Assembly (NCBI GenBank): GCA_000002445.1
Contig: CH464491.1
Span: forward strand, 992,001-1,056,000
Direction: 5' to 3'
Source of the DNA: Trypanosoma brucei
Lineage: Eukaryota
DNA: 64,000 nt
In this document: positions 15,847-64,000 of the stretch, in pieces
Numbering within the stretch: position 1 is the stretch's first letter
Layout of the letters: every line of letters begins with the position of its first letter
The notes under the pieces: generated by a model
What the model saw: only the letters and a program-made list of their open reading frames with translations
Databases searched by the model: none
What the model was told of the DNA's origin: nothing
Position numbers and translations under genes: made by a program

Positions 15847-16769
15847 AACAGTGCGCAGGGTCCAGTAGAAAAACCTGAAGGGCATGTGGAACATGAGACT
15901 AAAAGTGGGGCAACAAATGTTTGTTTTGACCACTTCTTATTTTTTCCTTTTCCCTCCTCATTACCGAAAGGGGAGGGGAGAAGGAATGCACTGCAGGGGT
16001 TTGCATATGTGGAACTGTGTGTGCAAACTTAGTGCGGGGTGTCAGAGGTGGGAATCCCCCAAATGAGAGAGGTGGAACACATATCCCACCGTGTGAAATG
16101 AAGAGGGGAGTATCATCTTGTGGGGACTGTAGGTTCAGACGGAATGCGATTTTGAGACGTGTGTGTGCGTGTGACCCGTCGTAGCCCTCGCATTTACTTG
16201 TTGTTGTGGCTTTTAATTTAACTTGCCGTCGTGATGTTTTTGCTGCTGTTGTCGTTGCAGTTATATGAAGTGGGGCAGTGGCCAAGCCCCCATTTTAACC
16301 TTTCTTGCATTTTGTTTCTTAACCGAAATGGGTACAGAGCCGCGGTGGTTTAATTTACGGAGGGGGGCAGGATTTCACAAGTCCGTAGCCCATTCAACTT
16401 CGTTATTGATGTTGTTAATTTTCGTTGTTGTTGTTGTTGCTTCCCTGTGCGTACCTTTCACAGTGTCTAGTGCTGCGCAGAAGGTAAAGAGAAAAAACGA
16501 AACGGAGATTTGGAAGCCTCCCTCAACGGTGGCTGCGGTGCTGGCCCTCGACAGGTGGCTGAAAAGCGTAAAGTATCGAGCATAGTAATACACTCCCCAG
16601 TGACAGAAGTGCAAGATATAATGTGTACATTAATAGTCTTCACAAAATTCTGTTTCCAACAGCACTTCTCTCTTGTTTGTTTTTTCCTATTACTATTGTT
16701 TTCCTGCATCTGTCACGAAAATGTGAAGGGACAGAGAGCGTGTCTGCATAAAAATCTCTACCTTACGGA

Positions 16770-18905: not shown

Positions 18906-19626
18906 GAGCATCACTTCGTTTCTACGGAGAGTGGGTAAGAAGAAAGGGAAGGCGTTATCAGCACAGGGAACCGCGATCGATCACGGTCAGTATTGGCATG
19001 GTTAAATGAAAAGGAAACAACTAAAGGGGAGGTGAAAGTGGTTATAACGGTCTGCGGCTCCTGAACAAGAGGTAATAAGAGGGTATTCGTGTCCGTGATG
19101 TTGCTCGTTCATCTTGGTCTATAACTTCTCTCCTCTACTTCCCAGCCCTTTTGTGGGATGCGTTTAAGCAATGTTGTGCATTTCGGTGCATCTCTTCTCG
19201 TTTATATGCGTGTGTGTGTGGGGGGGGTGAAGATTGTTGTTCTCCCTCTATGGAACACTATGTGTTGAATTCGAGGTATATTTCTTCTTAATGAGTACAT
19301 CCCCCCTGAAGCCCCCCCCAAAAAAAAAAATGGTTTTGTTCCTGCTGTATTACCTCTCTTTTTTCCTTTGTTACACCTCGTCACAGTGCGAAAGCGAAGA
19401 GTTGAAGAGGGAAAAGAGAAGGACAGACAATAAGCAGGGGGAAAGAATATCCGTATTTAACCGAAAGGGGAATAGCAAGGGGGAGTTAGTGAATACTGGC
19501 TGCGCGTTGCCACAGTTGCGGACACGCACACGCCCATTTGTACGGATATTTCTACATCCTTTTGCTTAGTTGGGCACTTTCTCGAGTAAAACAAGAGGGG
19601 GGTGGCTGGCGTAAAAAGGACCTCTG

Positions 19627-22062
19627 TTGATATCCATCGCGCCTACACATAGGTTTCGAGTGACCATGGACACCCTTACGTACGTGTGCAGGGAGTGCGA
19701 AGCCAGCGCGTTGCGCATTGAGGTGCCGTTAATTTCAGTTAAGGCAACCGCTTTTAACGATGACGTACCCGCGCTGATTTCATCCCACCGCCGGCTGCTC
19801 TGCATGAACATGAAGCAATCTAACCGCCTTCGTGTTCTCACACACCGGGGAAGTTACGCGGAGGTGGAAGTGGGCGCTACAGTACTCCGCAACCTCGTCT
19901 CCTCTGAGGGGTTACTGGAACACTGCTATTTTTTCGCAGCCGGTGGTAATGTGGTAGCGCGACTGGCCCCCATCAGGCAGGCGAACGGGGATGTAAAGAT
20001 CGAGAAACGTGAGGTGCGTCTGCCCGAAGAAGTATACGGTGTAACTGTGGGTTACGGAGATATCGTGTATGTACTAGGGAGGTCTTGTGCTTTTGAGGTG
20101 CATATGGAGTCATCAAAAACGTCACCAATTGGACTGGCACCCCGCACTTTTGTAAAACATTCGGTAATTGGATATCATCAACAGGCGAAATTACTGTTAG
20201 CGCCGGCAAAGGCGAACTGCCTCGACCTCGTATCAGCAACAGCCGGCACGAGCGTCTTACCGAAAGTCTGGGAACCGCACGCCAACTCGATGCCAACTGC
20301 CGCATTTTTCTTCCAGAGACGCAGTTTTTCGAATGAAAATTCGGATAACTTGTTCATTGTTACTGCGTCTCATGGCAACAGGGAACTCCGATTGTGGTCC
20401 TACAGCCAACGGACGAAGACATTTACTCTCAAACAGGACATATCCATCACTATGGAGGACGATGGAGTGGTGGATGGGGACGAAAATGCTTTTCTTATTA
20501 GCTGCACACCCACAGAAGAGTATATAACGCTTTGCTCAAAACAGCGTCCTCTTGCTGTGGTGCTGGAGCTCAACCGCAGTAGTTTCAAGGTCGATCGTGT
20601 TACTTCGTGGAGACTTAATGGCCCCGTACTGGGAAGTGTGGCAGCTGTTAGCAAGATGACAGAATCGGCGAGCAGCACATCTGTCGAGTACCAGGTGATT
20701 TTAACCGTCCGCACGGCGACCGGTTTTTATGGAGAAGTGCTGGACGTAGAAAAGCCTGCGGAAGCATCCAACACACCTTCACTGAGGACAAACTCCGCCT
20801 CCTCGTGGTTTCCGAAAAACGAGGCGGCACACATCGGTGGGACAGAGATTGCTCTGCCCACAGCACTGACATCGGTCTCTTCGTCCGTCTTGGGTGACAA
20901 AACGACAAACGCCGTGCCACAGGGAGTTGCATCTAACATTGTCCGTCAACAAGCCTCTCAGTTCTGTGAAACGCTGCGAAGCATTGATGAACGAGTTGTC
21001 AATTTGCAAAAGCATGCATCGGAAGCGATGCGCCTCCTTCAAGAGGCATGGGAGCGAGAAAAAGCACAGACAATCGGGCGCGAATTTGCCATTCGTAACA
21101 AAGGCAGGTTGGAGCAGCAACAACAAGTAGCAGGACAATCTACCGATAACCTCACCCCCAGGCAGCAGGAACTACTGGAGGAAATCCGTTCTATTGTGGA
21201 AAAGTCAGAGCAGCTGGCCGTAGATACTGCCACCGAGGTAGTGAAGGCACAACTTTCCCGGCGCCTGAAGGACGCCGTAGCGAAGGGTGCAAAGGAGGCA
21301 GATCAGGTTGAGTTGAGCTCCGGAACCCCCATTGTTCGTTCCACGGACAGCATGCGCCTGTTCAGCAACGGCGTGGACGCTGCCGTACGCACACTCGTTC
21401 GCGCAGTAAAAGGATACCACAAAACGATGAAAACTGTCGTGGATTCCTCATCAGCTGCGACAGCTAGTTGTGTTGCTAAAGCCAGGGAGTTCACGGCGTC
21501 CCTGAACCGTGAGAAGCAGTTACTTGCATCGGAATTGATGGCCACAATGGAGGTTGTGAGGCACGGCGGAGCACCGACCCAGCCGGTGGATCCAGACGCT
21601 CTTGTGGCGCGGGCAATCGCGCTAGCAGAAGCAAACGATTGGGTCACCTCCTTTACGACCGTGTTGGGGGCATCTGATATCACTGTCTTGTTGCACTTCC
21701 TCGAGAGTGAGGTGTGCGTGAATAACGTGACAGCTATGGTGAATCCGCAGTCGATTACCTTGCCTATATTTCTTAGCCTCTGTCTCCAGTTATCCTTTGA
21801 GCTGAATAACTTGCAGGGGCTCATTCCATCGCGTGTCAAGGCCCTTCACGCCTTCTTTGTTGAGTGGGATGATACACTGAAGGATATGAAGAGCAGGGCA
21901 GCAGATGGTAATAGCAAACACAAGCCGATGTTTGAGCTGACAAAACGCGAGTTGCGGAATGTATTGGAACAGTTGGAGATTGTCGACGATAAAGCAGTTG
22001 ACCGATGCAGTCGAAACAATCTCCGGCTGCTGAAGAAACTCATTCACTTCCTGGTGACATGA
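19627..22062 (+). CDS. Hypothetical coiled-coil protein (alternative start at Met 19666)
   Basis: 811-aa + ORF. The C-terminal half is predicted coiled-coil, with heptad-like charged/Leu patterning. Confidence 0.55.
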   Translation: MISIAPTHRFRVTMDTLTYVCRECEASALRIEVPLISVKATAFNDDVPALISSHRRLLCMNMKQSNRLRVLTHRGSYAEVEVGATVLRNLVSSEGLLEHCYFFAAGGNVVARLAPIRQANGDVKIEKREVRLPEEVYGVTVGYGDIVYVLGRSCAFEVHMESSKTSPIGLAPRTFVKHSVIGYHQQAKLLLAPAKANCLDLVSATAGTSVLPKVWEPHANSMPTAAFFFQRRSFSNENSDNLFIVTASHGNRELRLWSYSQRTKTFTLKQDISITMEDDGVVDGDENAFLISCTPTEEYITLCSKQRPLAVVLELNRSSFKVDRVTSWRLNGPVLGSVAAVSKMTESASSTSVEYQVILTVRTATGFYGEVLDVEKPAEASNTPSLRTNSASSWFPKNEAAHIGGTEIALPTALTSVSSSVLGDKTTNAVPQGVASNIVRQQASQFCETLRSIDERVVNLQKHASEAMRLLQEAWEREKAQTIGREFAIRNKGRLEQQQQVAGQSTDNLTPRQQELLEEIRSIVEKSEQLAVDTATEVVKAQLSRRLKDAVAKGAKEADQVELSSGTPIVRSTDSMRLFSNGVDAAVRTLVRAVKGYHKTMKTVVDSSSAATASCVAKAREFTASLNREKQLLASELMATMEVVRHGGAPTQPVDPDALVARAIALAEANDWVTSFTTVLGASDITVLLHFLESEVCVNNVTAMVNPQSITLPIFLSLCLQLSFELNNLQGLIPSRVKALHAFFVEWDDTLKDMKSRAADGNSKHKPMFELTKRELRNVLEQLEIVDDKAVDRCSRNNLRLLKKLIHFLVT

Positions 22063-48223: not shown

Positions 48224-49537
48224 TTGACCATGACACACAACAGGAGCGGGGCTGTTCGAAGGAAAGTCGTTCAACACGACTTTTATGATTCAGCTGACCA
48301 GGTTGGTGGAGTGGTGTTGCTGAACAACCCTACCAACGGCTCCTGGGAATATGATGAGTACCTTCGGCTGCTCACAACCAAAAGGTACTCTCGTATTCCT
48401 TCGTGGGAAGCACATTCCACTGCGCAGTGCTACTTTGTCTGCGCTGACGGTGTATATCCTAAACTTCAGTCATACGTCAAGGAGCGGCAGGTGAGCCATC
48501 CGCATCTTCGGTTGTTTCAATTTTTTCCTCTATGTGATGCTGTCATCGGTGATATGGACTCTTATGTCACTTCTTACGAAAAGGATGGTTGTGAAAGGCC
48601 TTCATCAACTCCAGAGGGCGGTTACGGCACTGTGGACGATATCCCTGTTGAGGTACTGGACACGATCCATCACAGGTGCCGCTCTGCGGCCGCGCTTTTT
48701 CGGGAGGTGGATGGGAGTGTGCCGGACACGCCACTGAATGGATGGAAAATGTTGCATGAAGAGCATTCCCACCCGTTACTTCGTCCGCTTTGGCTGCATA
48801 TCCAGTGCCAGATTACGACGGACTTCAAAAAGGCGCTGACACTCCTGAAACGGCTGCGCAAGCGGTACCCTGACGAGAACGCTGTCGTGTTACCTCCTGT
48901 TCTGCGTTCACCTGGTGCCGCGCGTATACTGGAAACCGGTGGCGGTGTTGTGGACCAAAGAAACTGCGGGTGCGACAACGACCCGATCCAGGAGCGTGAG
49001 CTGTGCGTTGCGGCCAGCCAGGTTGAAGCATTACTTCTGCCCACCGTTGTCGCTGTCGGTGCCTTCGGTGGTCGCTTTGACCACGAGGTGGGAGCCATCT
49101 CTACGATGCTTTCTGAGAGTCATGATGCACATATAGTGCTTATAAATTTGTTTAATACGGTGTTTGCGTGTCAGGGAGGTGGGTGGACACAGATTGTGCG
49201 GCAACCCGAGTATGAAGACAAGACTTGCGGTCTTGTAAACTACGGAAGAATGACTGAGTGCGAGACGAGTGGTTTGCTCTGGAATGTTGTGAAGGGCAGG
49301 GGGAGGCCAAGTGTTACAAACGATTTCGTTTTCGACTTTGGGGCGTTTATTTCCGTCTGCAACATTGTTCGCCGCGAAGTTATAACGGTTGATTTGCGGT
49401 GCCTTTTAACGAGTGTGGGGGAGTCACCTGCGGATGCGACGACCGCTACAGGCGCTTCTGATTGCGAAGCGCAACGCGGTCGTGGCCCACCTGTAGTGTT
49501 CTCCATACTTCGGCGGCAAAAAAAGGAGGGGGGCTAG
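48224..49537 (+). CDS. Thiamine pyrophosphokinase-like protein
   Basis: VIGDMDSY (compare TPK GDFDS) and VAVGAFGGRFDHEVGAISTM (compare TPK LGGLGGRFDQ). At 437 aa it is longer than canonical TPK. Confidence 0.6.
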   Translation: MTMTHNRSGAVRRKVVQHDFYDSADQVGGVVLLNNPTNGSWEYDEYLRLLTTKRYSRIPSWEAHSTAQCYFVCADGVYPKLQSYVKERQVSHPHLRLFQFFPLCDAVIGDMDSYVTSYEKDGCERPSSTPEGGYGTVDDIPVEVLDTIHHRCRSAAALFREVDGSVPDTPLNGWKMLHEEHSHPLLRPLWLHIQCQITTDFKKALTLLKRLRKRYPDENAVVLPPVLRSPGAARILETGGGVVDQRNCGCDNDPIQERELCVAASQVEALLLPTVVAVGAFGGRFDHEVGAISTMLSESHDAHIVLINLFNTVFACQGGGWTQIVRQPEYEDKTCGLVNYGRMTECETSGLLWNVVKGRGRPSVTNDFVFDFGAFISVCNIVRREVITVDLRCLLTSVGESPADATTATGASDCEAQRGRGPPVVFSILRRQKKEGG

Positions 49538-49967: not shown

Positions 49968-50789
49968 ATGGCCAAGAAGCACCTAAAGCGCCTGTATGCC
50001 CCCAAGGACTGGATGCTGAGCAAACTCACTGGTGTGTTTGCCCCTCGTCCACGTGCTGGTCCCCACAAACTACGCGAGTGCCTTTCGCTTCTGATTATTA
50101 TTCGCAACCGGCTGAAGTATGCACTAAATGCCCTCGAAGCGCAGATGATCCTTCGTCAGGGACTCGTGTGTGTAGACGGCAAGCCCCGCAAGGATGGTAA
50201 GTACCCAGCCGGTTTCATGGACGTGGTGGAGATTCCCAAGACGGGCGACCGCTTCCGCATCCTATATGACGTGAAAGGACGCTTTGCGCTTGTCCGCGTG
50301 AGCGAGGCTGAGTCGAGCATCAAGATGATGAAGGTTGTCAACGTATACACCGGCACGGGACGCATTCCTGTTGCTGTGACACACGACGGCCACCGGATTC
50401 GCTATCCCGACCCCCGTACGAGCCGTGGAGACACTTTGGTGTATGACGTGAAAGAAAAAAAGGTTTTGGACCTAATCAAGATTGGCAACGGCAAGGTTGT
50501 GATGGTGACAGGTGGTGCCAACCGTGGTCGTATTGGAGAAATTGTGTCCATTGAACGTCACCCTGGCGCCTTCGACATCGCCCGCCTCAAGGATGCGTCT
50601 GGTCACGAATTCGCAACTCGTGCCACAAACATTTTTGTGATTGGCAAGGACATGTCGAGTGTTCCAGTTACGTTACCTAAGCAACAGGGTTTGCGTATCA
50701 ACGTGATTCAGGAGCGTGAGGAAAAACTCATAGCCGCCGAAACACGCAGAACAACTCAGGCGCACAGCAAGCGAAAGACTAAGGTGTAA
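49968..50789 (+). CDS. RPS4: 40S ribosomal protein S4, copy 1
   Basis: 273 aa, MAKKHLKRLYAPKDWMLSKLTGVFAPRPRAGPHKLRE... is a canonical eukaryotic RPS4 N-terminus, with KOW-like and S4 domains. Confidence 0.95.
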   Translation: MAKKHLKRLYAPKDWMLSKLTGVFAPRPRAGPHKLRECLSLLIIIRNRLKYALNALEAQMILRQGLVCVDGKPRKDGKYPAGFMDVVEIPKTGDRFRILYDVKGRFALVRVSEAESSIKMMKVVNVYTGTGRIPVAVTHDGHRIRYPDPRTSRGDTLVYDVKEKKVLDLIKIGNGKVVMVTGGANRGRIGEIVSIERHPGAFDIARLKDASGHEFATRATNIFVIGKDMSSVPVTLPKQQGLRINVIQEREEKLIAAETRRTTQAHSKRKTKV

Positions 50790-51037: not shown

Positions 51038-51859
51038 ATGGCCAAGAAGCACCTAAAGCGCCTGTATGCCCCCAAGGACTGGATGCTGAGCAAACTCACT
51101 GGTGTGTTTGCCCCTCGTCCACGTGCTGGTCCCCACAAACTACGCGAGTGCCTTTCGCTTCTGATTATTATTCGCAACCGGCTGAAGTATGCACTAAATG
51201 CCCTCGAAGCGCAGATGATCCTTCGTCAGGGACTCGTGTGTGTAGACGGCAAGCCCCGCAAGGATGGTAAGTACCCAGCCGGTTTCATGGACGTGGTGGA
51301 GATTCCCAAGACTGGCGACCGCTTCCGCATCCTATATGACGTGAAAGGACGCTTTGCGCTTGTCCGCGTGAGCGAGGCTGAGTCGAGCATCAAGATGATG
51401 AAGGTTGTCAACGTATACACCGGCACGGGACGCATTCCTGTTGCTGTGACACACGACGGCCACCGGATTCGCTATCCCGACCCCCGTACGAGCCGTGGAG
51501 ACACTTTGGTGTATGACGTGAAAGAAAAAAAGGTTTTGGACCTAATCAAGATTGGCAACGGCAAGGTTGTGATGGTGACAGGTGGTGCCAACCGTGGTCG
51601 TATTGGAGAAATTGTGTCCATTGAACGTCACCCTGGCGCCTTCGACATCGCCCGCCTCAAGGATGCGTCTGGTCACGAATTCGCAACTCGTGCCACAAAC
51701 ATTTTTGTGATTGGCAAGGACATGTCGAGTGTTCCAGTTACGTTACCTAAGCAACAGGGTTTGCGTATCAACGTGATTCAGGAGCGTGAGGAAAAACTCA
51801 TAGCCGCCGAAACACGAAGAACAACTCAGGCGCACAGCAAGCGAAAGACTAAGGTGTAA
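51038..51859 (+). CDS. RPS4: 40S ribosomal protein S4, copy 2 (identical protein)
   Basis: Encoded protein is 100% identical to copy 1, with 2 synonymous nt differences. The flanks are unrelated. Confidence 0.95.
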   Translation: MAKKHLKRLYAPKDWMLSKLTGVFAPRPRAGPHKLRECLSLLIIIRNRLKYALNALEAQMILRQGLVCVDGKPRKDGKYPAGFMDVVEIPKTGDRFRILYDVKGRFALVRVSEAESSIKMMKVVNVYTGTGRIPVAVTHDGHRIRYPDPRTSRGDTLVYDVKEKKVLDLIKIGNGKVVMVTGGANRGRIGEIVSIERHPGAFDIARLKDASGHEFATRATNIFVIGKDMSSVPVTLPKQQGLRINVIQEREEKLIAAETRRTTQAHSKRKTKV

Positions 51860-51980
51860 CGGCTAAATTCACATACAGTTACTTTCATTCTTTACACACC
51901 ACCTTGATCAACTGCACATATTAAATACTTGCCTGTAAAATGAGCAGTATCATCCCCACTTAAGGAAACTGTAAGCTTAG

Positions 51981-52008
51981 TCACTTCCCTCCTTTCTCTT
52001 TCTTTTTG
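51981..52008 (+). promoter_or_regulatory. Polypyrimidine tract plus downstream AG: probable trans-splice acceptor of transporter gene (repeated in each unit at 54960.. and 57932..)
   Basis: tcacttccctcctttctctttctttttgt followed by an AG (gaAGgttaaAG) lies about 130 nt upstream of the ATG and is conserved in all three units. Confidence 0.45.
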
Positions 52009-52151
52009 TACGAAGGTTAAAGCCACAAGACTCTCTTACTGAACTCAGGCAAGTGAACAACACCGCACTAAACCAGAATCGCATAAGTTACATCCACTAT
52101 CCATCCACTCGGGTTTAACTGAATTGCATCGCTGGATACCTTTCGTGTGCA

Positions 52152-53459
52152 ATGGCTCTTGGATTTTCCTCTGCGGGGGAAGTGTACATGTACGCAACAT
52201 GCATCCTTCTTGGAGTGTCCCTTCTAATGCCCCTTAACGCTCTCGTTTCCGCACCGCGCTTTATGGTGGACTACTACAAGTACGTATCTGGTAAAGAGGA
52301 TGCCGAACCGAACCTTCCCTTTTTCTGGAAGAATATTTTCACGTTCTACAATGTTGTATCGCTTGCGTCGCAGGTGATTGCTGGACCGACCGTTCTAACT
52401 CGTGCAGCCCGTCGACTTTCATTATCTGTGCGCTTTGCCCTTTCCATCACGTTGATGATGTCGGAGGTATTTGTAGTTCTCATGATGCCTGTGATCAAGG
52501 TACCTCAAACAGTTGCCATTGTTCTTCTCTGCCTTGTGACAATATTTGCAGGTATTGGGAAATCATACCATGAGGCGACGTGCTACGTTCTGGTGGCGTC
52601 GATGCCATCTAAGTTCATGTCTGCTGTTATGTTTGGAGTGTCACTATGCGGTGTAATAACGTCCACACTACAGTGCATCATCAAGGCATCGATGGAAGAT
52701 ACCTATGAGTCCGTGCTGACGCAGTCATACATTTATTTTTCACTTGGTCTACTGATAATGGCGGGTACACTTGCGATGGCTCTCTGTCTACGATATAATT
52801 CCTACGCGCAGGAGCACGTTGCTGAGTACCGTATGCTCAAACTACAAGAACAAGGAGTAGATGCTGAGTCTCAAAATGATGAGAATGAACCCGTGGCTGA
52901 AGGTAAAGGTGAAGGTGAAGGTAAGAGTGAGGGTGCCATGACGACAGCAGAGCAACTGACGGCAACTGCTGTTATGCCCGTAGCGAGGATAATCCGTATG
53001 ATGTTAGTGACAGTCTTCTGCGGCTTCTTCCTCACCTTATTTATCTTCCCCAGTCTTATTATTCCCATCGATCGTGACCACAATTGGTTTGCGACAATTG
53101 CCATTCTGCTATACAACTGTGGGGATGCTATTGGACGTTTCTCCACCTCGTTCAAGTGCGTTTGGCCGCCCCGCCGTGCTCTGCTGTACGCCACCTTCGC
53201 CCGCTTCATTTTTGTTCTGCCCTTCATGTTATGCATTTACCAATACATCCCTGGCCATGTCGGTCCGTATATCTTCTCGTTTCTCCTTGGCCTGACCAAC
53301 TGTGTGGGTGCCATGTCGATGGTGTATGGCCCAATAACCCCTGGTCTTGAGACTGCGGGTCAGAAATTGATGGCTGGACAGTTGATGGGGATTTCGCTGC
53401 TTTCTGGAATTGCCGCTGCATCTGTGCTTGCGATGATTGTGGTTGTCTTCCTACCATGA
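52152..53459 (+). CDS. Equilibrative nucleoside/nucleobase transporter (ENT family), copy 1; resembles T. brucei NT8-type purine nucleobase transporters
   Basis: 435 aa with ~11 predicted TM helices and the ENT N-terminal pattern (EVYMYATCILLGVSLLMPLNALVSAPRFMVDYY). There is a charged EG-repeat cytoplasmic loop between TM6 and TM7. Confidence 0.88.
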   Translation: MALGFSSAGEVYMYATCILLGVSLLMPLNALVSAPRFMVDYYKYVSGKEDAEPNLPFFWKNIFTFYNVVSLASQVIAGPTVLTRAARRLSLSVRFALSITLMMSEVFVVLMMPVIKVPQTVAIVLLCLVTIFAGIGKSYHEATCYVLVASMPSKFMSAVMFGVSLCGVITSTLQCIIKASMEDTYESVLTQSYIYFSLGLLIMAGTLAMALCLRYNSYAQEHVAEYRMLKLQEQGVDAESQNDENEPVAEGKGEGEGKSEGAMTTAEQLTATAVMPVARIIRMMLVTVFCGFFLTLFIFPSLIIPIDRDHNWFATIAILLYNCGDAIGRFSTSFKCVWPPRRALLYATFARFIFVLPFMLCIYQYIPGHVGPYIFSFLLGLTNCVGAMSMVYGPITPGLETAGQKLMAGQLMGISLLSGIAAASVLAMIVVVFLP

Positions 53460-53567
53460 GTACGCTTAATGGAGGAGCCGCCTCTCACTAACACCACTTT
53501 GTTAGTACGTGACGTGTTTTAAGTGATGGAGCATCGTTGATGTTTTATCAAAGATACTATCTTAACT

Positions 53568-53568
<1 letters not shown>

Positions 53569-53598
<30 letters not shown>
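53569..53598. repeat. (TA)15 microsatellite in transporter intergenic region (11 repeats in unit 2 at 56549-56570, absent in unit 3)
   Basis: Direct reading of tatatata...; repeat count differs between array units. Confidence 0.9.
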
Positions 53599-53602
<4 letters not shown>

Positions 53603-55130
53603 TAGTTTATATCTTTTTTACATTAACAAGATTATTTTATTTTAATTATTTATTTTTTTTTGATTTTCCTTTAACTGAAGGCATGTGCGGGTAAGGCAGC
53701 ATAAACTATTTTGGACTGCCTCAGTACGCTAGCCCCTTTATAACATACGTTTTTGTTTATTTTTTTTGTCTTAGGACTGCTTCCCCGCTACTGGGTATGT
53801 TGAGGGAAAAAACGTCAGACACTTTCTCTCGGCACCTGGTGCGGTGTGTCCGGCATTTACTTCCCTTCCTTTTTTTTTATGATGCACATTACGTTGCCTG
53901 CTGAAGATATTGTTTGGAGCAATGTGCTTGTGGTGTTTGGGTGTACTGAAATTTGTGGTGAGACGGTGCGACTCTTGTGTGGTTAAGTAAAGGAATGTGA
54001 ACTGATTGTACGATATGCCACTGGTGTCGCTACCATTCACTGTCAACGAGCTTCAACCATTATTAGTGGTGTGATTTTAGTGGATATAAATAAGAAATAA
54101 ATTCCTAGTGTGTGTTTTCTCCCGTTTCCTCCTTCTTTCATGTAGGCCAACTTTAGTGCGTATGTACGGAGGTATAATATTAGTGTTTAGTAATTTCTGC
54201 GTAAATACCTGCGGTTTCCTTGTTTGCAGCAACACGTTACCTTTCAACTATAGACCTCCGTTGCGTGCTACAATCGTTATTTGTGTATTATAATTATCTA
54301 TTTTAAAAAAATTTTCTATATATATATATATATGTTTGTTTGTTGTATAACTTCGGGGAAGCGCTGTTTTGTAAGGCTGTGTTAGGAAATCTATATTACT
54401 GGTAACAGTAGTAATAAATGGGAGATCGTCTAATTTGTGTGCGTCACGGGGTTTAATGATTATTGTGATGTGCGGTTGTATTGCTGTTATTTTCTGCATC
54501 TGATATGCTTTAGGTTTAAGTACTCAATACCTTCTCCATCCATATAGATATTGTTTCCTTCTCTTTCTCCTTTTCTTTCCTTTCTTATATCTTATTCCTA
54601 CTGCCCCATTGCGATAGTGATAGCGTCAAGTTTATGTATGTTGTTGTAGTTGTACTTGCCGCGCTGCTTCGAAGCTGTTGGCTCACCAATGGTTTTACTG
54701 GATATGGTGTTCCGAAGTTTTTGGAGGACCTATTGCATATGTCCATGTTGCTGTACCGTTGTGTTTGCCTTTCGATGAACTCCCGTGGATTTGCGTGCTC
54801 GTGTTTTTGCTTTTTGCTTCTGTTATGTGGTAATGGCGGATGTGTATACGATGGCGATATCCACATATATGTGATAAGGATGGTGCAGAACCGCAACCAC
54901 TAAATACTTGCCTGTAAAATGAGCAGTATCATCCCCACTTAAGGAAACTGTAAGCTTAGTCACTTCCCTCCTTTCTCTTTCTTTTTGTACGAAGGTTAAA
55001 GCCACAAGACTCTCTTACTGAACTCAGGCAAGTGAACAACACCGCACTAAACCAGAATCGCATAAGTTACATCCACTATCCATCCACTCGGGTTTAACTG
55101 AATTGCATCGCTGGATACCTTTCGTGTGCA

Positions 55131-56438
55131 ATGGCTCTTGGATTTTCCTCTGCGGGGGAAGTGTACATGTACGCAACATGCATCCTTCTTGGAGTGTCCC
55201 TTCTAATGCCCCTTAACGCTCTCGTTTCCGCACCGCGCTTTATGGTGGACTACTACAAGTACGTATCTGGTAAAGAGGATGCCGAACCGAACCTTCCCTT
55301 TTTCTGGAAGAATATTTTCACGTTCTACAATGTTGTATCGCTTGCGTCGCAGGTGATTGCTGGACCGACCGTTCTAACTCGTGCAGCCCGTCGACTTTCA
55401 TTATCTGTGCGCTTTGCCCTTTCCATCACGTTGATGATGTCGGAGGTATTTGTAGTTCTCATGATGCCTGTGATCAAGGTACCTCAAACAGTTGCCATTG
55501 TTCTTCTCTGCCTTGTGACAATATTTGCAGGTATTGGGAAATCATACCATGAGGCGACGTGCTACGTTCTGGTGGCGTCGATGCCATCTAAGTTCATGTC
55601 TGCTGTTATGTTTGGAGTGTCACTATGCGGTGTAATAACGTCCACACTACAGTGCATCATCAAGGCATCGATGGAAGATACCTATGAGTCCGTGCTGACG
55701 CAGTCATACATTTATTTTTCACTTGGTCTACTGATAATGGCGGGTACACTTGCGATGGCTCTCTGTCTACGATATAATTCCTACGCGCAGGAGCACGTTG
55801 CTGAGTACCGTATGCTCAAACTACAAGAACAAGGAGTAGATGCTGAGTCTCAAAATGATGAGAAGGAACCCGTGGCTGAAGGTAAAGGTGAAGGTGAAGG
55901 TAAGAGTGAGGGTGCCATGACGACAGCAGAGCAACTGACGGCAACTGCTGTTATGCCCGTAGCGAGGATAATCCGTATGATGTTAGTGACAGTCTTCTGC
56001 GGCTTCTTCCTCACCTTATTTATCTTCCCCAGTCTTATTATTCCCATCGATCGTGACCACAATTGGTTTGCGACAATTGCCATTCTGCTATACAACTGTG
56101 GGGATGCTATTGGACGTTTCTCCACCTCGTTCAAGTGCGTTTGGCCGCCCCGCCGTGCTCTGCTGTACGCCACCTTCGCCCGCTTCATTTTTGTTCTGCC
56201 CTTCATGTTATGCATTTACCAATACATCCCTGGCCATGTCGGTCCGTATATCTTCTCGTTTCTCCTTGGCCTGACCAACTGTGTGGGTGCCATGTCGATG
56301 GTGTATGGCCCAATAACCCCTGGTCTTGAGACTGCGGGTCAGAAATTGATGGCTGGACAGTTGATGGGGATTTCGCTGCTTTCTGGAATTGCCGCTGCAT
56401 CTGTGCTTGCGATGATTGTGGTTGTCTTCCTACCATGA
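55131..56438 (+). CDS. ENT-family transporter, copy 2 (1 aa different from copy 1: N to K in loop)
   Basis: 435 aa. The only difference from copy 1 is QNDENEP versus QNDEKEP. Confidence 0.88.
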   Translation: MALGFSSAGEVYMYATCILLGVSLLMPLNALVSAPRFMVDYYKYVSGKEDAEPNLPFFWKNIFTFYNVVSLASQVIAGPTVLTRAARRLSLSVRFALSITLMMSEVFVVLMMPVIKVPQTVAIVLLCLVTIFAGIGKSYHEATCYVLVASMPSKFMSAVMFGVSLCGVITSTLQCIIKASMEDTYESVLTQSYIYFSLGLLIMAGTLAMALCLRYNSYAQEHVAEYRMLKLQEQGVDAESQNDEKEPVAEGKGEGEGKSEGAMTTAEQLTATAVMPVARIIRMMLVTVFCGFFLTLFIFPSLIIPIDRDHNWFATIAILLYNCGDAIGRFSTSFKCVWPPRRALLYATFARFIFVLPFMLCIYQYIPGHVGPYIFSFLLGLTNCVGAMSMVYGPITPGLETAGQKLMAGQLMGISLLSGIAAASVLAMIVVVFLP

Positions 56439-58101
56439 GTACGCTTAATGGAGGAGCCGCCTCTCACTAACACCACTTTGTTAGTACGTGACGTGTTTTA
56501 AGTGATGGAGCATCGTTGATGTTTTATCAAAGATACTATCTTAACTTGTATATATATATATATATATATATGTATTAGTTTATATCTTTTTTACATTAAC
56601 AAGATTATTTTATTTTAATTATTTATTTTTTTTTGATTTTCCTTTAACTGAAGGCATGTGCGGGTAAGGCAGCATAAACTATTTTGGACTGCCTCAGTAC
56701 GCTAGCCCCTTTATAACATACGTTTTTGTTTATTTTTTTTGTCTTAGGACTGCTTCCCCGCTACTGGGTATGTTGAGGGAAAAAACGTCAGACACTTTCT
56801 CTCGGCACCTGGTGCGGTGTGTCCGGCATTTACTTCCCTTCCTTTTTTTTTATGATGCACATTACGTTGCCTGCTGAAGATATTGTTTGGAGCAATGTGC
56901 TTGTGGTGTTTGGGTGTACTGAAATTTGTGGTGAGACGGTGCGACTCTTGTGTGGTTAAGTAAAGGAATGTGAACTGATTGTACGATATGCCACTGGTGT
57001 CGCTACCATTCACTGTCAACGAGCTTCAACCATTATTAGTGGTGTGATTTTAGTGGATATAAATAAGAAATAAATTCCTAGTGTGTGTTTTCTCCCGTTT
57101 CCTCCTTCTTTCATGTAGGCCAACTTTAGTGCGTATGTACGGAGGGATAATATTAGTGTTTAGTAATTTCTGCGTAAATACCTGCGGTTTCCTTGTTTGC
57201 AGCAACACGTTACCTTTCAACTATAGACCTCCGTTGCGTGCTACAATCGTTATTTGTGTATTATAATTATCTATTTTAAAAAATTTTTCTATATATATAT
57301 ATGTTTGTTTGTTGTATAACTTCGGGGAAGCGCTGTTTTGTAAGGCCGTGTTAGGAAATCTGTATTACTGGTAACAGTAGTAATAAATGGGAGATCGTCT
57401 AATTTGTGTGCGTCACGGGGTTTAATGATTATTGTGATGTGCGGTTGTATTGCTGTTATTTTCTGCATCTGATATGCTTTAGGTTTAAGTACTCAATACC
57501 TTCTCCATCCATATAGATATTGTTTCCTTCTCTTTCTCTTTCTCCTTTTCTTTCTTATATCTTATTCCTACTGCCCCATTGCGATAGTGATAGCGTCAAG
57601 TTTATGTATGTTGTTGTAGTTGTACTTGCCGCGCTGCTTCGAAGCTGTTGGCTCACCAATGGTTTTACTGGATATGGTGTTCCGAAGTTTTTGGAGGACC
57701 TATTGCATATGTCCATGTTGCTGTACCGTTGTGTTTGCCTTTCGATGAACTCCCGTGGATTTGCGTGCTCGTGTTTTTGCTTTTTGCTTCTGTTATGTGG
57801 TAATTGCGGATGTGTATACGATGGCGATATCCACAAAATATGTGATAAGGATGGTGCAGAACCGCAACCACTAAATACTTGCCTGTAAAATGAGCAGTAT
57901 CATCCCCACTTAAGGAAACTGTAAGCTTAGTCACTTCCCTCCTTTCTCTTTCTTTTTGTACGAAGGTTAAAGCCACAAGACTCTCTTACTGAACTCAGGC
58001 AAGTGAACAACACCGCACTAAACCAGAATCGCATAAGTTACATCCACTATCCATCCACTCGGGTTTAACTGAATTGCATCGCTGGATACCTTTCGTGTGC
58101 A

Positions 58102-59424
58102 ATGGCTCTTGGATTTTCCTCTGCGGGGGAAGTGTACATGTACGCAACATGCATCCTTCTTGGGATTTCCCTCCTCATGCCTCTCTGTGTCCTGGTTTCC
58201 GCACCAAGCTTTATGTTGAACTACTACAAGTACGTATCTGGTAAAGAGGATTCCGAACCGAACCTTCCCTTTTTCTGGAAGAATATTTTCACGTTCTACA
58301 ATGTTGTATCGCTTGCGTCGCAGGTGATTGCTGGACCGACCGTTCTAACTCGTGCAGCCCGTCGACTTTCATTATCTGTGCGCTTTGCCCTTTCCATCAC
58401 GTTGATGATGTCGGAGGTATTTGTAGTTCTCATGATGCCTGTGATCAAGGTACCTCAAACAGTTGCCATTGTTCTTCTCTGCCTTGTGACAATATTTGCA
58501 GGTATTGGGAAATCATACCATGAGGCGACGTGCTACGTTCTGGTGGCGTCGATGCCATCTAAGTTCATGTCTGCTGTTATGTTTGGAGTGTCACTATGCG
58601 GTGTAATAACGTCCACACTACAGTGCATCATCAAGGCATCGATGGATGATACCTATGAGTCTGTGCTGAAGCAGTCATACATTTATTTTTCACTTGGGAT
58701 TTTAATAATGTCCGCAACACTTGCGATGGCTCTCTGTCTACGATATAATTCCTACGCGCAGGAGCACGTTGCTGAGTACCGTATGCTCAAACTACAAGAA
58801 CAAGGAGTAGATGCTGAGTCTCAACATGATGAGAATGAACCCACTGCTGAAGGTGAAGGTGAAAGTAAAGGTGAGGGTGGCGAAGGTGATGCTGAAGGTG
58901 GCATGACGACAGCAGAGCAACTGACAGCAACTGCTGTTATGCCTGTCGTGAAGATTATCCGTATGATGTTATTATGTGTCTTCTGCGGCTTCTTCCTCAC
59001 CTTATTTATCTTCCCCAGTCTTATTATTCCCATCGATCGTAAACACAATTGGTTTGCGACAATTGCCATTCTGCTATACAACTGTGGGGATGCTATTGGA
59101 CGTTTCTCCACCTCGTTCAAGTGCGTTTGGCCGCCCCGCCGTGCTCTGCTGTATTTCACTTTTGGTCGCTTTATTTTTATTTTGCCTTTTATTCTGTGTA
59201 TTTACAAACACATCCCTGGTCACGCAGCTCCGTATATCTTCTCGTTTCTCCTTGGCCTGACCAACTGTGTGGGTGCCATGTCGATGGTGTATGGCCCAAT
59301 AACCCCTGGTCTTGAGACTGCGGGTCAGAAATTGATGGCTGGACAGTTGATGGGGATTTCGCTGCTTTCTGGAATTGCCGCTGCATCTGTGCTTGCGATG
59401 ATTGTGGTTATCTTCCTACCATGA
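58102..59424 (+). CDS. ENT-family transporter, copy 3 (440 aa; mosaic divergent paralogue)
   Basis: Long stretches are identical to copies 1 and 2. Divergent patches are the N-terminal TM1 region, TM6, a 5-aa longer EG-repeat loop, TM7 and TM9/10. Confidence 0.88.
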   Translation: MALGFSSAGEVYMYATCILLGISLLMPLCVLVSAPSFMLNYYKYVSGKEDSEPNLPFFWKNIFTFYNVVSLASQVIAGPTVLTRAARRLSLSVRFALSITLMMSEVFVVLMMPVIKVPQTVAIVLLCLVTIFAGIGKSYHEATCYVLVASMPSKFMSAVMFGVSLCGVITSTLQCIIKASMDDTYESVLKQSYIYFSLGILIMSATLAMALCLRYNSYAQEHVAEYRMLKLQEQGVDAESQHDENEPTAEGEGESKGEGGEGDAEGGMTTAEQLTATAVMPVVKIIRMMLLCVFCGFFLTLFIFPSLIIPIDRKHNWFATIAILLYNCGDAIGRFSTSFKCVWPPRRALLYFTFGRFIFILPFILCIYKHIPGHAAPYIFSFLLGLTNCVGAMSMVYGPITPGLETAGQKLMAGQLMGISLLSGIAAASVLAMIVVIFLP

Positions 59425-60371
59425 GTACGCATAATGGAGGGGCCGCCTCTCGCTTAAACATTCTTTTTTATGTATTAATTTTTTGTAATTTCTTTTTTGT
59501 TTTTAATATATGTAAAGTATCTTAACGTAACATTTTTGGTACTTAATTATTTTGTTGTTTTTTGTGATTTTCTTTTAATTGAAGGCAAGTGTGGGTGAGG
59601 CAGCATAAACTATTTTGGACTGCCTCAGTACGCTAGTCGGTTACTAAATTTGAAAATTTTGTCTTAGGACTGCTTCCCCGCTACTGGGTATGTTGAGGGA
59701 AAAAACGTCAGACACTTTCTCTCGGCACCTGGTGCGGTGTGTCCGGCATTTACTTCCCTTCCTTTTTTTTATGATGCACATTACGTTGCCTGCTGAAGAT
59801 ATTGTTTGGAGCAATGTGCTTGTGGTGTTTGGGTGTACTGAAATTTGTGGTGAGATGGTGCGACTCTTGTGTGGTTAAGTAAAGGAATGTGAACTGATTG
59901 TACGATATGCCACTGGTGTCGCTACCATTCACTGTTAATGGCCTCGACCATTTTTTTTTTTGACATTAATGGGGAAATTTTTGTTTTTGTAAAACGGCAT
60001 GAAGAAAGTAATAATACTGGTATCAGTAGTAATAAACGGGGATTCACCTAACTCTCGTGTAGTTTGCGGTTATTCTGCTTGTTGTTGTACCTACTGTGCT
60101 TTAATGCAATGTGGTTGGTGGGTCCTTCATTTCTCTATCTTTCTCTGCTTCTTCTTTAATTTTTTTTCTTATCTCTTAATCTTAATGTTTCACTGCGGCA
60201 GTTATTGCTCCAAGCTTGTGTATGTTGTAGCTGTACTTGGTGAGTTGTTCTTCTTTGTGTTTTACCTTTTTATTTGTTCCTTTATATTGTTTGATTTCCC
60301 ATTTCCCATTTCTTTTCTTCTTTTATTATTTTTTTGTTATTTTGTTTCATATTCATTAGTATTTTTGTGTA

Positions 60372-60929
60372 ATGTTAAAGTGCTCCTTGTGCTATCTAGC
60401 AAGCAAGGTGACTGCGGGTAATGCGAAAAATCAAGCCGGCCACCCAAGGCGGAGGGCTAAACTATTTCATGTTGTTCCTGGTACTCCAGTTACTCCATTT
60501 GAGAAGCTAAAGGAACAGAGGCGGCGGTTTGGTCAGGATCGTCATTCGCGTTTACCTGAATATCGACCAGGGAATAATGTCCGTATGGATCCTAATACAT
60601 ACACGTTGTACGCCACAAAGAAGGGCGTGATGACGATACGTGAGAGCCGCATTAATCCCAAGTATAAATGGCTTGATGTGGAACCTGACATTCAAAAGGT
60701 TTATCGCAGTAGAGAATTGCGACGGGCACTTCAGGAAAGGGAAATGGCCTCTATGGCGGTTGGTGAAAACTCGAACTACCGGGTAGAACTGGACTTGTTG
60801 CTGGAACCGGATTGGCGTGAGCGTGTCATGCATGTGCCGAAGGCTACGGAGCGCTTCAAGGACCCCAATCTCTTTACCCGTGGTGTTGTTAACGAGCTGT
60901 CACCCTTGGATAGGTACAGTTACACATGA
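60372..60929 (+). CDS. Hypothetical protein (start uncertain)
   Basis: 185-aa + strand ORF with mixed charged composition and no recognised domain. Confidence 0.35.
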   Translation: MLKCSLCYLASKVTAGNAKNQAGHPRRRAKLFHVVPGTPVTPFEKLKEQRRRFGQDRHSRLPEYRPGNNVRMDPNTYTLYATKKGVMTIRESRINPKYKWLDVEPDIQKVYRSRELRRALQEREMASMAVGENSNYRVELDLLLEPDWRERVMHVPKATERFKDPNLFTRGVVNELSPLDRYSYT

Positions 60930-63002: not shown

Positions 63003-64000
63003 ATGGCCGCGGCTCCAAGTGCGACAGCACCTAAGCATAACTACACACTCGGAACAAATGCTTCGCAACTCGAGCTGTACAAGTACCTCAAGACTGTTCC
63101 TCCCATCCCAGAGCTGCGACAGGCGGTAACAATTAAGAAGTACGAAGAGGCTTCTGTTGATGATACCTTGTACCCGTTGATTGATGAGCACCAGATCATC
63201 ATGGTGGTCGGTGCTTTCTTCGGAGATGAGGGAAAGGGGAAGACAGTGGATGCCGTTGCTCGCCACCCCGCATGCACGTGCGTCGCCCGAGTTAACAGCG
63301 GAGAAAATGCTGGACACACAGTCTTTGATGACATTGGCCGCAAGTATGTGTTTAACCTTGCCCCATCCAGCCTTCTCACGCCCAACACGCGCAACTACGT
63401 GAGCTCGGAGTGTGTTATGGATCCCATTAGCTTCATGGAGAGGGAGATAGGACAATTTATCAAATCAAATATGCCCTACAAGGACAAGCTCTTTGTTGGC
63501 AATGTTTTTGTGGTTACACCCTACCACAAGTTGCTTGATTTGCTTGGATCCGCACCAAACTCCTCAACCTTGAAGGGCATGTCCCCCATCCATGCCTCAA
63601 AGGTGACGAAGCGTGGCATCCGCCTGGACCACATTTTCAATGATGAGGGGGTTCTCCGAGCCCGGCTTGCTAAGGACATGGACACATACTATGGATTGCT
63701 AAAAGTTAAGGGACTAACCGATAAGGATGTGGTCCGCCGCTGTCAAGAGGAGAATGCTGATGGTGTGGAGCGTGTGCCAGGTTATGTGGTAGACTTTGCG
63801 CGGGCGGAGAATAAGATCGACTATTTGGTGAAACTCTACACTGAGCGAGTGAAGAACAACAAGGACTTCCCACGGCGTTGTGACGTGACCCATGAATTAC
63901 GCGCGGCACTTGCCAGGGGTGAGAAATTGCTGTTGGAGGGCCCGCAGTCCTACTGGCTGAGTAACGCCCGTGAGAAATTCTGGGAGAGCACCACCTCCGC
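63003..64000 (+). CDS. ADSS: Adenylosuccinate synthetase, 5' partial (continues beyond window end)
   Basis: Translated by hand from ATG 63003, preceded by an in-frame TGA at 62997. The product is MAAAPSATAPKHNYTLGTNASQLELYKYL...HQIIMVVGAFFGDEGKGKTVDAVARH...ARVNSGENAGHTVFDDIGRKYVFNLAPS. It contains the GDEGKGK P-loop and NAGHT motifs diagnostic of AdSS, with an N-terminal extension as in trypanosomatid enzymes. Confidence 0.85.
   Translation, partial: MAAAPSATAPKHNYTLGTNASQLELYKYLKTVPPIPELRQAVTIKKYEEASVDDTLYPLIDEHQIIMVVGAFFGDEGKGKTVDAVARHPACTCVARVNSGENAGHTVFDDIGRKYVFNLAPSSLLTPNTRNYVSSECVMDPISFMEREIGQFIKSNMPYKDKLFVGNVFVVTPYHKLLDLLGSAPNSSTLKGMSPIHASKVTKRGIRLDHIFNDEGVLRARLAKDMDTYYGLLKVKGLTDKDVVRRCQEENADGVERVPGYVVDFARAENKIDYLVKLYTERVKNNKDFPRRCDVTHELRAALARGEKLLLEGPQSYWLSNAREKFWESTTS

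What the first reader, a model, noticed from the sequence alone, without database searches (positions are those of the whole stretch)
51922..59937. Three-unit tandem array of ENT-family purine transporter genes with 2.97-kb periodicity
Units 1 and 2 (51922-54900 and 54901-57872) are almost base-for-base identical across CDS and ~1.5 kb of intergenic DNA, differing by one codon in the CDS and by microsatellite lengths. This implies very recent duplication or ongoing homogenisation. The encoded 435-aa proteins have the ENT N-terminal motif and 11 TM helices. From memory they resemble the T. brucei NT8.1/8.2/8.3 plus NT9 purine nucleobase transporter cluster on chromosome 11. Near-identical tandem copies are collapse-prone in assemblies, so the true copy number may be higher.
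Basis: partly seen in the sequence, partly recalled or inferred. Interest (0 to 1): 0.55.

Follow-up and report, generated by a model that had tools for sequence, protein, structure and literature searches.

The report
Known trypanosome purine-base transporter gene array
This is the already described tandem array of three NT8 purine nucleobase transporter genes (NT8.1, NT8.2, NT8.3) on chromosome 11 of Trypanosoma brucei, each carrying the published purine-responsive RNA hairpin in its 3' UTR, so the finding is real but ordinary.

Summary
Three head-to-tail units (51922-54900, 54901-57871, 57872-~60312) each carry one ENT-family (PF01733) gene. Units 1 and 2 differ by 10 substitutions and 4 small indels over about 2.97 kb. 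Only one difference is in the CDS (AAT/AAG, N245K).

The three proteins are exact matches to T. brucei brucei TREU927 EAN79330, EAN79331 and EAN79332. These are Tb927.11.3610/3620/3630, the published NT8.1/NT8.2/NT8.3 nucleobase transporter locus.

The "plus NT9" was wrong: TbNT9 is Tb927.6.220, a P1-type adenosine transporter on chromosome 6. The third protein is 440 aa, not 435.

All three 3' UTRs carry an identical 60-nt hairpin. By position, shape and homology to the Leishmania NT3 element, it is the published purine-responsive element bound by PuREBP1/2.

Two points go slightly beyond the reference annotation. First, variant blocks are shared in a mosaic between copies and strains, which indicates gene conversion. 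Second, copy number is unstable: a gap-free T. b. equiperdum assembly has 7 NT8 units and 4 RPS4 genes where this window has 3 and 2.

Novelty: already known. Interest is low.

The parts
51922..54900 (+). Repeat unit 1 (2979 nt). It holds 230 nt upstream of the ATG, the NT8.1 CDS, and 1441 nt of 3' UTR plus spacer.
   Evidence: Homology with unit 2 starts exactly at 51922 (TAAATACTTGCC...).
54901..57871 (+). Repeat unit 2 (2971 nt), carrying NT8.2.
   Evidence: 2959 of 2979 positions are identical to unit 1.
57872..60312 (+). Repeat unit 3, carrying NT8.3. Its upstream region, CDS and proximal 3' UTR are mosaic, with stretches of 100% identity next to patches of 62-72%. Its distal spacer has diverged to about 61% identity and is shortened.
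52152..53459 (+). NT8.1 CDS (Tb927.11.3610), 435 aa, an ENT-family purine nucleobase transporter.
   Evidence: Exact match to EAN79330.1 / UniProt NT81_TRYB2. PF01733 E = 1.9e-26.
55131..56438 (+). NT8.2 CDS (Tb927.11.3620), 435 aa. It differs from NT8.1 only by N245K.
   Evidence: Exact match to EAN79331.1 / XP_828443.1. Difference shown.
58102..59424 (+). NT8.3 CDS (Tb927.11.3630), 440 aa. It differs from NT8.1 at 37 aligned amino-acid positions and 93 nucleotide positions.
   Evidence: Exact match to EAN79332.1 / XP_828444.1. PF01733 E = 1.2e-28. Differences counted.
53785..53844 (+). 60-nt stem-loop in the NT8.1 3' UTR (3' UTR nt 326-385), taken to be the purine-responsive element (PuRE). 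The 35-nt core is 53798-53832, with a GAGGGAAA / UUUCUCUC stem.
   Evidence: MFE -26.1 kcal/mol, z = -4.4. It is cut by the published 365-nt deletion that abolishes regulation, and it has the described purine/pyrimidine stem (PMC4066783). It aligns to the L. infantum NT3 3' UTR 2748 nt after the stop codon; the published LdNT3 element lies about 2.73 kb downstream.
56758..56817 (+). PuRE stem-loop of NT8.2, identical in sequence to the NT8.1 copy.
59678..59737 (+). PuRE stem-loop of NT8.3, identical in sequence. It lies in a block of about 280 nt (59650-59935) that is near-identical to units 1 and 2, although the first ~200 nt of this 3' UTR have diverged.
53570..53602 (.). (TA)16.5 microsatellite in the 3' UTR. 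It is 6 nt shorter in unit 2 (from 56549). A second (TA)n at about 54317 differs by 4 nt.
51984..52015 (+). Polypyrimidine tract followed by the first AG (52014-52015). This is the inferred trans-splice acceptor region of NT8.1. The homologous stretch is 100% identical between units 2 and 3.
   Evidence: Read directly from the sequence and from the identity profile. The function is inferred from the general rules of kinetoplastid trans-splicing and was not tested.

Best explanation
The window is Trypanosoma brucei brucei TREU927 chromosome 11, and the feature is the known NT8 locus. It consists of three tandem genes (NT8.1, NT8.2, NT8.3 = Tb927.11.3610/3620/3630). [quoted passage not shown] Each 3' UTR carries an identical stem-loop, the PuRE. 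The PuREBP1/PuREBP2 complex binds it and represses the mRNA when external purines are plentiful. Repression is lifted under purine starvation.

The array arose by tandem duplication of a single ancestral gene, which is still single-copy in Leishmania as NT3. Unequal crossing-over and patchy gene conversion keep it homogeneous. This explains three things: units 1 and 2 are about 99.3% identical, the edge copy NT8.3 is a mosaic, and copy number differs among T. brucei assemblies.

- Shown here: sequence identity to the annotated genes, array anatomy, position and conservation of the hairpin, the mosaic pattern, and synteny with copy-number differences.
- Taken from the literature: transport substrates, PuRE function and PuREBP binding.
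- Inferred: gene conversion as the homogenising mechanism.
For: - **Identity:** all three ORF products are exact sequence matches to TREU927 proteins with consecutive accessions EAN79330-79332 on a 5,261,801-bp contig. ORF 1 is UniProt NT81_TRYB2. The best hits are all trypanosomatid nucleobase transporters. PF01733 is hit.
- **Literature on the locus:** it is described as three nucleobase transporters in tandem, NT8.1/8.2/8.3, and its knock-out removes guanine uptake in procyclics (PMC8776092; PMC9331716). Substrates G, H, X, A are listed for H4 (NBT1/NT8.1) (PMC10208901; PMC9960827).
- **PuRE literature:** there are three NT8 genes in tandem and all are predicted to carry the stem-loop (PMC4066783). 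PuREBP1/2 bind it and repress NT8 (PMC8053114).
- **Hairpin in the window:** it lies at 53785-53844, 56758-56817 and 59678-59737, is identical in all three units, and folds at -26.1 kcal/mol with z = -4.4. It is homologous to the L. infantum NT3 3' UTR element 2748 nt after the stop codon (compare).
- **Synteny:** the order M1 peptidase, TPK, RPS4 xN, NT8-like xN, 185-aa gene, adenylosuccinate synthetase is conserved. Transporter copy number in the slot is 1 (Leishmania), 2 (T. theileri), 4 (T. vivax), 3 (this window) and 7 (T. b. equiperdum).
- **Concerted evolution:** paralogues are 92-100% identical within a species but about 65% identical between T. brucei and T. vivax.
- **Mosaic:** variant blocks, for example CDS columns 63-106 and about 600-625, are shared between different copies in TREU927, gambiense and equiperdum. 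Tracts of 100% identity alternate with patches of 62-72% between units 2 and 3.
Against: Nothing contradicts the identification. Caveats:
- The published PuRE sequence is not given in the text I could read. My assignment of the hairpin rests on its position, its shape and its homology to Leishmania, not on a letter-by-letter match.
- Gene conversion and repeated recent duplication cannot be fully separated from these data.
- Only NT8.1 has reported transport kinetics in the papers read. The function of NT8.2 and NT8.3 is inferred from 99.8% and about 92% identity.
- A phmmer search of NT8.1 against PDB sequences found nothing at E <= 0.001. The ENT fold is therefore supported only by the Pfam match and by hydropathy.
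Confidence: 0.97

Rival explanations
1. The three-copy count is an under-count. The real TREU927 array, and the RPS4 array beside it, would have more units that were collapsed in the reference assembly. The anatomy seen here would then be right in kind but wrong in number.
For: - A gap-free stretch of T. b. equiperdum CM010682.1 has 7 NT8 units and 4 RPS4 genes at the same slot.
- The T. b. gambiense DAL972 array is broken by a 100-N gap, and a terminal-type unit plus downstream flank appears twice. This shows the locus is hard to assemble.
- A short-read Logan contig (ERR034315) is a single 2914-nt unit, as expected for a collapsed repeat.
Against: - Units 1 and 2 carry 14 distinguishing differences. 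The array is bounded by unique junctions on both sides, which allows a correct assembly.
- Several laboratories treat the locus as three genes, although they rely on the same reference.
- The 7-versus-3 difference may be true strain polymorphism.
- No read-depth data were available here.
Confidence: 0.3
2. The near-identity of units 1 and 2 reflects one very recent duplication only. There would be no ongoing exchange between copies.
For: - Units 1 and 2 differ by only about 0.3% in substitutions.
- Copy number differs between closely related subspecies, which shows that duplication and deletion are frequent.
Against: - The same variant blocks occur in different array positions in different strains. 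The 5' block of 927 NT8.3 is found in equiperdum copies 2, 4 and 7. The block at about column 600 is found in gambiense copy 5 and equiperdum copy 7.
- Units 2 and 3 alternate between 100%-identical tracts of up to 350 nt and patches of 62-72%. A clock-like divergence after a single duplication does not produce this pattern.
Confidence: 0.15
3. One reading: the cluster contains NT9 as a member next to the NT8 genes.
For: None from the tools. It rested on recollection only.
Against: - TbNT9 is Tb927.6.220, annotated as a purine nucleoside transporter (PMC7952579). It is a P1-type carrier with Km 0.068 uM for adenosine (PMC9960827; PMC10208901).
- The third gene here is an exact match to EAN79332 'nucleobase transporter, putative'. 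It is 92% identical to NT8.1 and is called NT8.3 / Tb927.11.3630.
Confidence: 0.01

Closest known systems
T. brucei NT8.1/NT8.2/NT8.3 locus (Tb927.11.3610-3630; TbNBT1 / H4 activity)
   Same: It is the same locus. The three proteins are exact matches. The tandem arrangement of three genes is the same, and the PuRE hairpin is present in each 3' UTR as published.
   Different: Nothing differs in kind. What I add is the exact unit boundaries, the diverged third spacer, the mosaic conversion pattern and the comparison with a 7-unit array in T. b. equiperdum.
Leishmania NT3 purine nucleobase transporter and its 33-nt purine-response stem-loop
   Same: It is the orthologue at the same syntenic slot, RPS4 x2 - NT3 - 185-aa gene. 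Protein identity is about 51%. A homologous 3' UTR element represses expression when purines are abundant.
   Different: It is single-copy. The protein is about 500 aa. The element lies about 2.7 kb into the 3' UTR rather than about 0.33 kb. The L. donovani and T. brucei elements are reported not to be interchangeable, because of three loop bases.
T. vivax and T. congolense NT8-like nucleobase transporter arrays
   Same: T. vivax has a tandem array at the same slot, with four 436-aa genes that are 99-100% identical to one another. T. congolense has 16 putative nucleobase transporter genes of this clade (PMC9960827). Both show the same pattern of within-species homogeneity.
   Different: They are only about 65% identical to the T. 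brucei proteins. According to PMC10208901 they have not been functionally characterised.
TbNT9 (Tb927.6.220; P1-type adenosine transporter)
   Same: It belongs to the same ENT superfamily.
   Different: It is on a different chromosome. It belongs to the nucleoside-transporter (P1) group, not the nucleobase group, and has a different substrate (adenosine, Km 0.068 uM). It is not part of this array.

Membership tests
ENT / SLC29 equilibrative nucleoside transporter family (Pfam PF01733) | Significant match to the Nucleoside_tran profile above the curated cut-off. | tested here: met
   93.7 and 100.8 bits against a cut-off of 29.8, covering profile positions 9-307/308 of 309.
ENT / SLC29 equilibrative nucleoside transporter family (Pfam PF01733) | Eleven transmembrane helices with a large hydrophilic loop between TM6 and TM7. 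| tested here: inconclusive
   a crude Kyte-Doolittle scan gives 9 clear hydrophobic segments. Two weaker ones (about 62-82 and 311-330) were read by eye. There is a hydrophilic loop at about 216-270. No dedicated topology predictor or structure model was run. A PDB sequence search found nothing at E <= 0.001.
T. brucei NT8 nucleobase transporter cluster (Tb927.11.3610/3620/3630) | Protein sequences identical to the annotated TREU927 genes. | tested here: met
   exact-sequence look-up returns EAN79330.1 (NT81_TRYB2), EAN79331.1 / XP_828443.1 and EAN79332.1 / XP_828444.1.
T. brucei NT8 nucleobase transporter cluster (Tb927.11.3610/3620/3630) | Three genes in a head-to-tail tandem array in the conserved chromosomal context. 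| tested here: met
   Searches show the array. Searches show the conserved order: M1 peptidase, TPK, RPS4, transporter(s), 185-aa gene, adenylosuccinate synthetase.
T. brucei NT8 nucleobase transporter cluster (Tb927.11.3610/3620/3630) | PuRE stem-loop in the 3' UTR of every copy. | tested here: met
   an identical 60-nt hairpin in all three units; homology to the Leishmania NT3 element at the published distance. A letter-by-letter comparison with the published PuRE was not possible, because the sequence is only in the papers' figures.
T. brucei NT8 nucleobase transporter cluster (Tb927.11.3610/3620/3630) | High-affinity purine nucleobase transport, and purine-dependent repression through PuREBP1/2. 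| not testable with these tools
   Taken from PMC10208901, PMC9960827, PMC4066783 and PMC8053114.
   Identifier mapping. The third gene is Tb927.11.3630 and is 92% identical to NT8.1. A direct alignment to the NT9 protein was not run, because its sequence was not retrieved.

The most novel reading that the evidence does not exclude
The reference three-gene picture may understate a dynamic locus. T. brucei strains would carry anywhere from 3 to at least 7 NT8 units, with RPS4 copy number varying alongside. Patchy gene conversion would shuffle a small set of variant cassettes (TM1 / first loop, the TM6-7 loop, the TM9 region) between copies. Different strains would then express different mixtures of NT8 variants, which might differ in substrate or drug-analogue specificity.
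Probability: 0.35. Interest if true: 0.25.

Novelty: already known. Interest (0 to 1): 0.1.

Why it matters
Trypanosomes cannot make purines, so these transporters are part of an essential salvage route and a route of entry for purine-analogue drugs. The locus and its 3' UTR hairpin are also the best-worked example of nutrient-responsive post-transcriptional control in trypanosomes. All of this is published.

The practical value of this check is small:
- RNA-seq, knock-out and copy-number work that relies on the three-gene reference should allow for more copies in other strains.
- NT9 should not be associated with this locus.

Tried and rejected
- I searched the main text and held supplements of PMC4066783 and PMC8053114 for the literal PuRE sequence. 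It was not found, because the sequence is only in the figures. I used position, fold and Leishmania homology instead.
- An ungapped search for the 33-nt T. brucei core in the L. infantum locus, allowing up to 9 substitutions, found nothing. A short-word BLAST of the 3' UTRs returned only low-complexity (TA)n and poly-T hits. A gapped local alignment then found the element.
- A second hairpin at 53676-53735 lies wholly inside the published 204-365 interval. I considered it as the PuRE and rejected it. It has no purine/pyrimidine stem, and its best Leishmania alignment is short and weak (score 18 against 36).
- An Rfam scan of the whole window at gathering thresholds gave no hits.
- A phmmer search of NT8.1 against PDB sequences gave no hits at E <= 0.001.
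- I looked for extra genes on either strand inside the units. There are only short ORFs overlapping the CDS or the spacer, and none has support.
- The DAL972 count of five genes was not accepted as a copy number, because of the 100-N gap and the duplicated terminal unit and flank.
Full report
**1. The observation**

The region holds three + strand ORFs at 52152-53459 (435 aa), 55131-56438 (435 aa) and 58102-59424 (440 aa). They sit in direct repeats with start-to-start spacings of 2979 and 2971 nt. Self-BLAST gives 97.5% identity for 51922-56465 against 54901-59451, and 94.2% for 51922-53486 against 57872-59451.

A global alignment of unit 1 (51922-54900) with unit 2 (54901-57871) shows 2959 identical positions, 10 substitutions and 4 indel events.
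- Two indels are (TA)n length changes, at 53570 and 54317. Two are single-base indels.
- The only coding difference is 52886 T/G, AAT to AAG, which gives N245K.
- The remaining nine substitutions cluster in the distal spacer, 54173-54866.

The third protein is 440 aa. Units 1 and 2 also differ by a few intergenic point changes.

**2. Anatomy of the array**

Homology between units begins exactly at 51922, which is 230 nt upstream of the ATG.

Each unit holds the following parts:
- a polypyrimidine tract followed by an AG (51984-52015 in unit 1), which I infer to be the trans-splice acceptor;
- the CDS;
- about 600 nt of proximal 3' UTR;
- an 839-nt distal spacer, 54062-54900.

Unit 3 is a mosaic relative to unit 2.
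- Identity is 100% over 57871-58120, 58266-58615 and 59262-59361.
- Between these tracts lie patches of 62-72% identity (58171-58215, 58866-58915, 59162-59211).
- The first ~200 nt of the 3' UTR are poorly conserved.
- A near-identical block then follows, 59650-59935.

High identity stops near 59952. The sequence downstream of unit 3 (59955-60312) still aligns to the spacer 54335-54743 at 61% identity. The alignment score is 179, against 81 +/- 9.6 for shuffled sequence. Unit 3 is therefore a complete but older or unhomogenised unit, and the array ends at about 60312 rather than at 59937.

No other supported gene lies on either strand inside the units. There is no Rfam family match anywhere in the window.

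**3. Identity**

All three proteins match Pfam PF01733, Nucleoside_tran (E = 1.9e-26 and 1.2e-28). The homology search returns only trypanosomatid nucleobase transporters.

An exact-sequence look-up shows:
- ORF 1 is EAN79330.1, which is UniProt NT81_TRYB2.
- ORF 2 is EAN79331.1 / XP_828443.1.
- ORF 3 is EAN79332.1 / XP_828444.1.
- All are from T. brucei brucei TREU927, on a 5,261,801-bp contig.

The window is therefore TREU927 chromosome 11.

The literature calls these genes Tb927.11.3610/3620/3630, or NT8.1/NT8.2/NT8.3, 'a locus of three nucleobase transporters in tandem repeat'. Deleting the locus gives procyclic cells with no guanine uptake (PMC8776092; PMC9331716; PMC7952579). NT8.1 (NBT1, the H4 activity) carries guanine, hypoxanthine, xanthine and adenine with micromolar or better affinity (PMC10208901; PMC9960827 Table 10).

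**4. The NT9 claim**

TbNT9 is Tb927.6.220, a 'purine nucleoside transporter' (PMC7952579). It is a P1-type carrier with Km 0.068 uM for adenosine, and it is grouped with NT2-7 and NT10. It is not on chromosome 11 and is not in this array. The third gene is NT8.3. The rest (ENT family, purine nucleobase clade, T. brucei chromosome 11) is right.

**5. How it works**

Every ORF of at least 250 aa but one (4332-5090, which overlaps a longer + strand ORF) is on the + strand. This fits a single polycistronic unit. Regulation then has to be post-transcriptional, which is established knowledge for kinetoplastids.

Fernandez-Moya et al. (PMC4066783) reported the following:
- Removing the first 203 nt of the NT8 3' UTR has no effect.
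- Removing the first 365 nt abolishes repression.
- A 60-nt stem-loop, with a purine strand paired to a pyrimidine strand, is necessary and sufficient for purine-dependent repression. A 35-nt core is enough.
- All three genes were predicted to have it.

Rico-Jimenez et al. (PMC8053114) showed that PuREBP1 (Tb927.4.4550) and PuREBP2 (Tb927.3.3060) bind this element and mediate the repression.

In the window, the most stable 60-nt hairpin in each 3' UTR is 53785-53844, 56758-56817 and 59678-59737.
- The three sequences are identical.
- The stem is GAGGGAAA / UUUCUCUC.
- The fold is -26.1 kcal/mol, with z = -4.4 against shuffles.
- It occupies 3' UTR nt 326-385, so the 365-nt deletion cuts it and the 203-nt deletion does not.

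Its core also aligns to the L. infantum NT3 3' UTR 2748 nt after the stop codon. [quoted passage not shown]

I therefore assign these hairpins as the PuREs. This is inference from position, shape and homology. The printed sequence could not be retrieved.

The element in NT8.3 sits in a near-identical island within an otherwise diverged proximal 3' UTR. Either constraint or gene conversion could produce that.

**6. Evolution and copy number**

The gene order is conserved: M1 peptidase, thiamin pyrophosphokinase-like gene, RPS4 genes, transporter(s), a 185-aa gene, then adenylosuccinate synthetase. The number of transporter genes in the slot varies:

| Assembly | Transporter genes | Note |
|---|---|---|
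| L. infantum / L. donovani | 1 | single-copy NT3 |
| T. theileri | 2 | 63% identical to each other |
| T. vivax | 4 | 99-100% identical |
| This window (TREU927) | 3 | with 2 RPS4 genes |
| T. b. equiperdum CM010682.1 | 7 units | stretch without Ns; the first unit has a 1-nt frameshift; 4 RPS4 genes |

The T. b. gambiense DAL972 array cannot be counted reliably. It is interrupted by a 100-N gap, and it contains a terminal-type unit plus 559 nt of downstream flank twice.

A short-read contig from run ERR034315 consists of a single 2914-nt unit. That is what a collapsed repeat looks like.

Paralogues are far more alike within species than between species: 92-100% against about 65%.

The variable sites form blocks that recur in different copies and strains.
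- The 5' block of TREU927 NT8.3 is found in equiperdum copies 2, 4 and 7.
- The block near column 600 is found in gambiense copy 5 and equiperdum copy 7.

This mosaic is the signature of gene conversion between array members, with the 3'-edge copy least homogenised. Whether TREU927 itself has more than three units cannot be decided without reads.

**7. Verdict**

The feature is real, is correctly placed, and is almost correctly interpreted. It is a well-known, annotated and experimentally studied locus.
- Novelty: already known.
- Interest: low (0.1).
- The most novel reading still open is strain-level copy-number and cassette variation with functional consequences. I give it a probability of about 0.35 and modest interest.

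Noticed in passing
window 49968-50789 and 51038-51859: Two tandem 40S ribosomal protein S4 genes lie immediately upstream of the array. They are 273 aa each and identical in protein, with 2 nt differences and a spacing of 1070 nt. The T. b. equiperdum assembly has four copies at this position, so this neighbouring array is also variable in copy number or collapsed.
   Followed up: partly
window 63003-64000 (runs off the window end): Adenylosuccinate synthetase, a purine salvage enzyme, starts two genes downstream of the purine transporters. Its first 332 aa are 99.7% identical to the equiperdum protein. This linkage of transporter and ADSS is conserved in T. vivax and T. theileri.
   Followed up: partly
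window 60372-60929: A 185-aa ORF with no Pfam match is conserved in length and position directly downstream of the transporter gene(s) in Leishmania, T. vivax, T. theileri and T. brucei. Its function is unknown.
   Followed up: no
L003 (T. b. gambiense DAL972 FN554974.1) 12745-19813: A terminal-type NT8 unit plus 559 nt of the downstream flank is followed by a 100-N gap, then by a partial unit and a second terminal unit plus flank. The annotated 256-aa 'fragment' gene abuts the gap. This is probably a scaffolding artefact or two haplotypes joined in series.
   Followed up: partly
window 53676-53735, 56649-56708 and 59584-59643: A second conserved hairpin lies about 110 nt upstream of the PuRE, with an AGGCAG...CUGCCU stem. 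It is more stable in unit 3 (-24.6 kcal/mol) than in units 1 and 2 (-17.4) because of flanking changes. It has no counterpart in the Leishmania 3' UTR. Its significance is unknown.
   Followed up: partly
window 48224-49537: A 437-aa ORF matches the thiamin pyrophosphokinase catalytic domain, barely above the curated cut-off (32.3 vs 30.7 bits, with no stretch passing on its own), and the B1-binding domain (29.9 vs 22 bits). It is conserved upstream of RPS4 in all trypanosomes examined.
   Followed up: no
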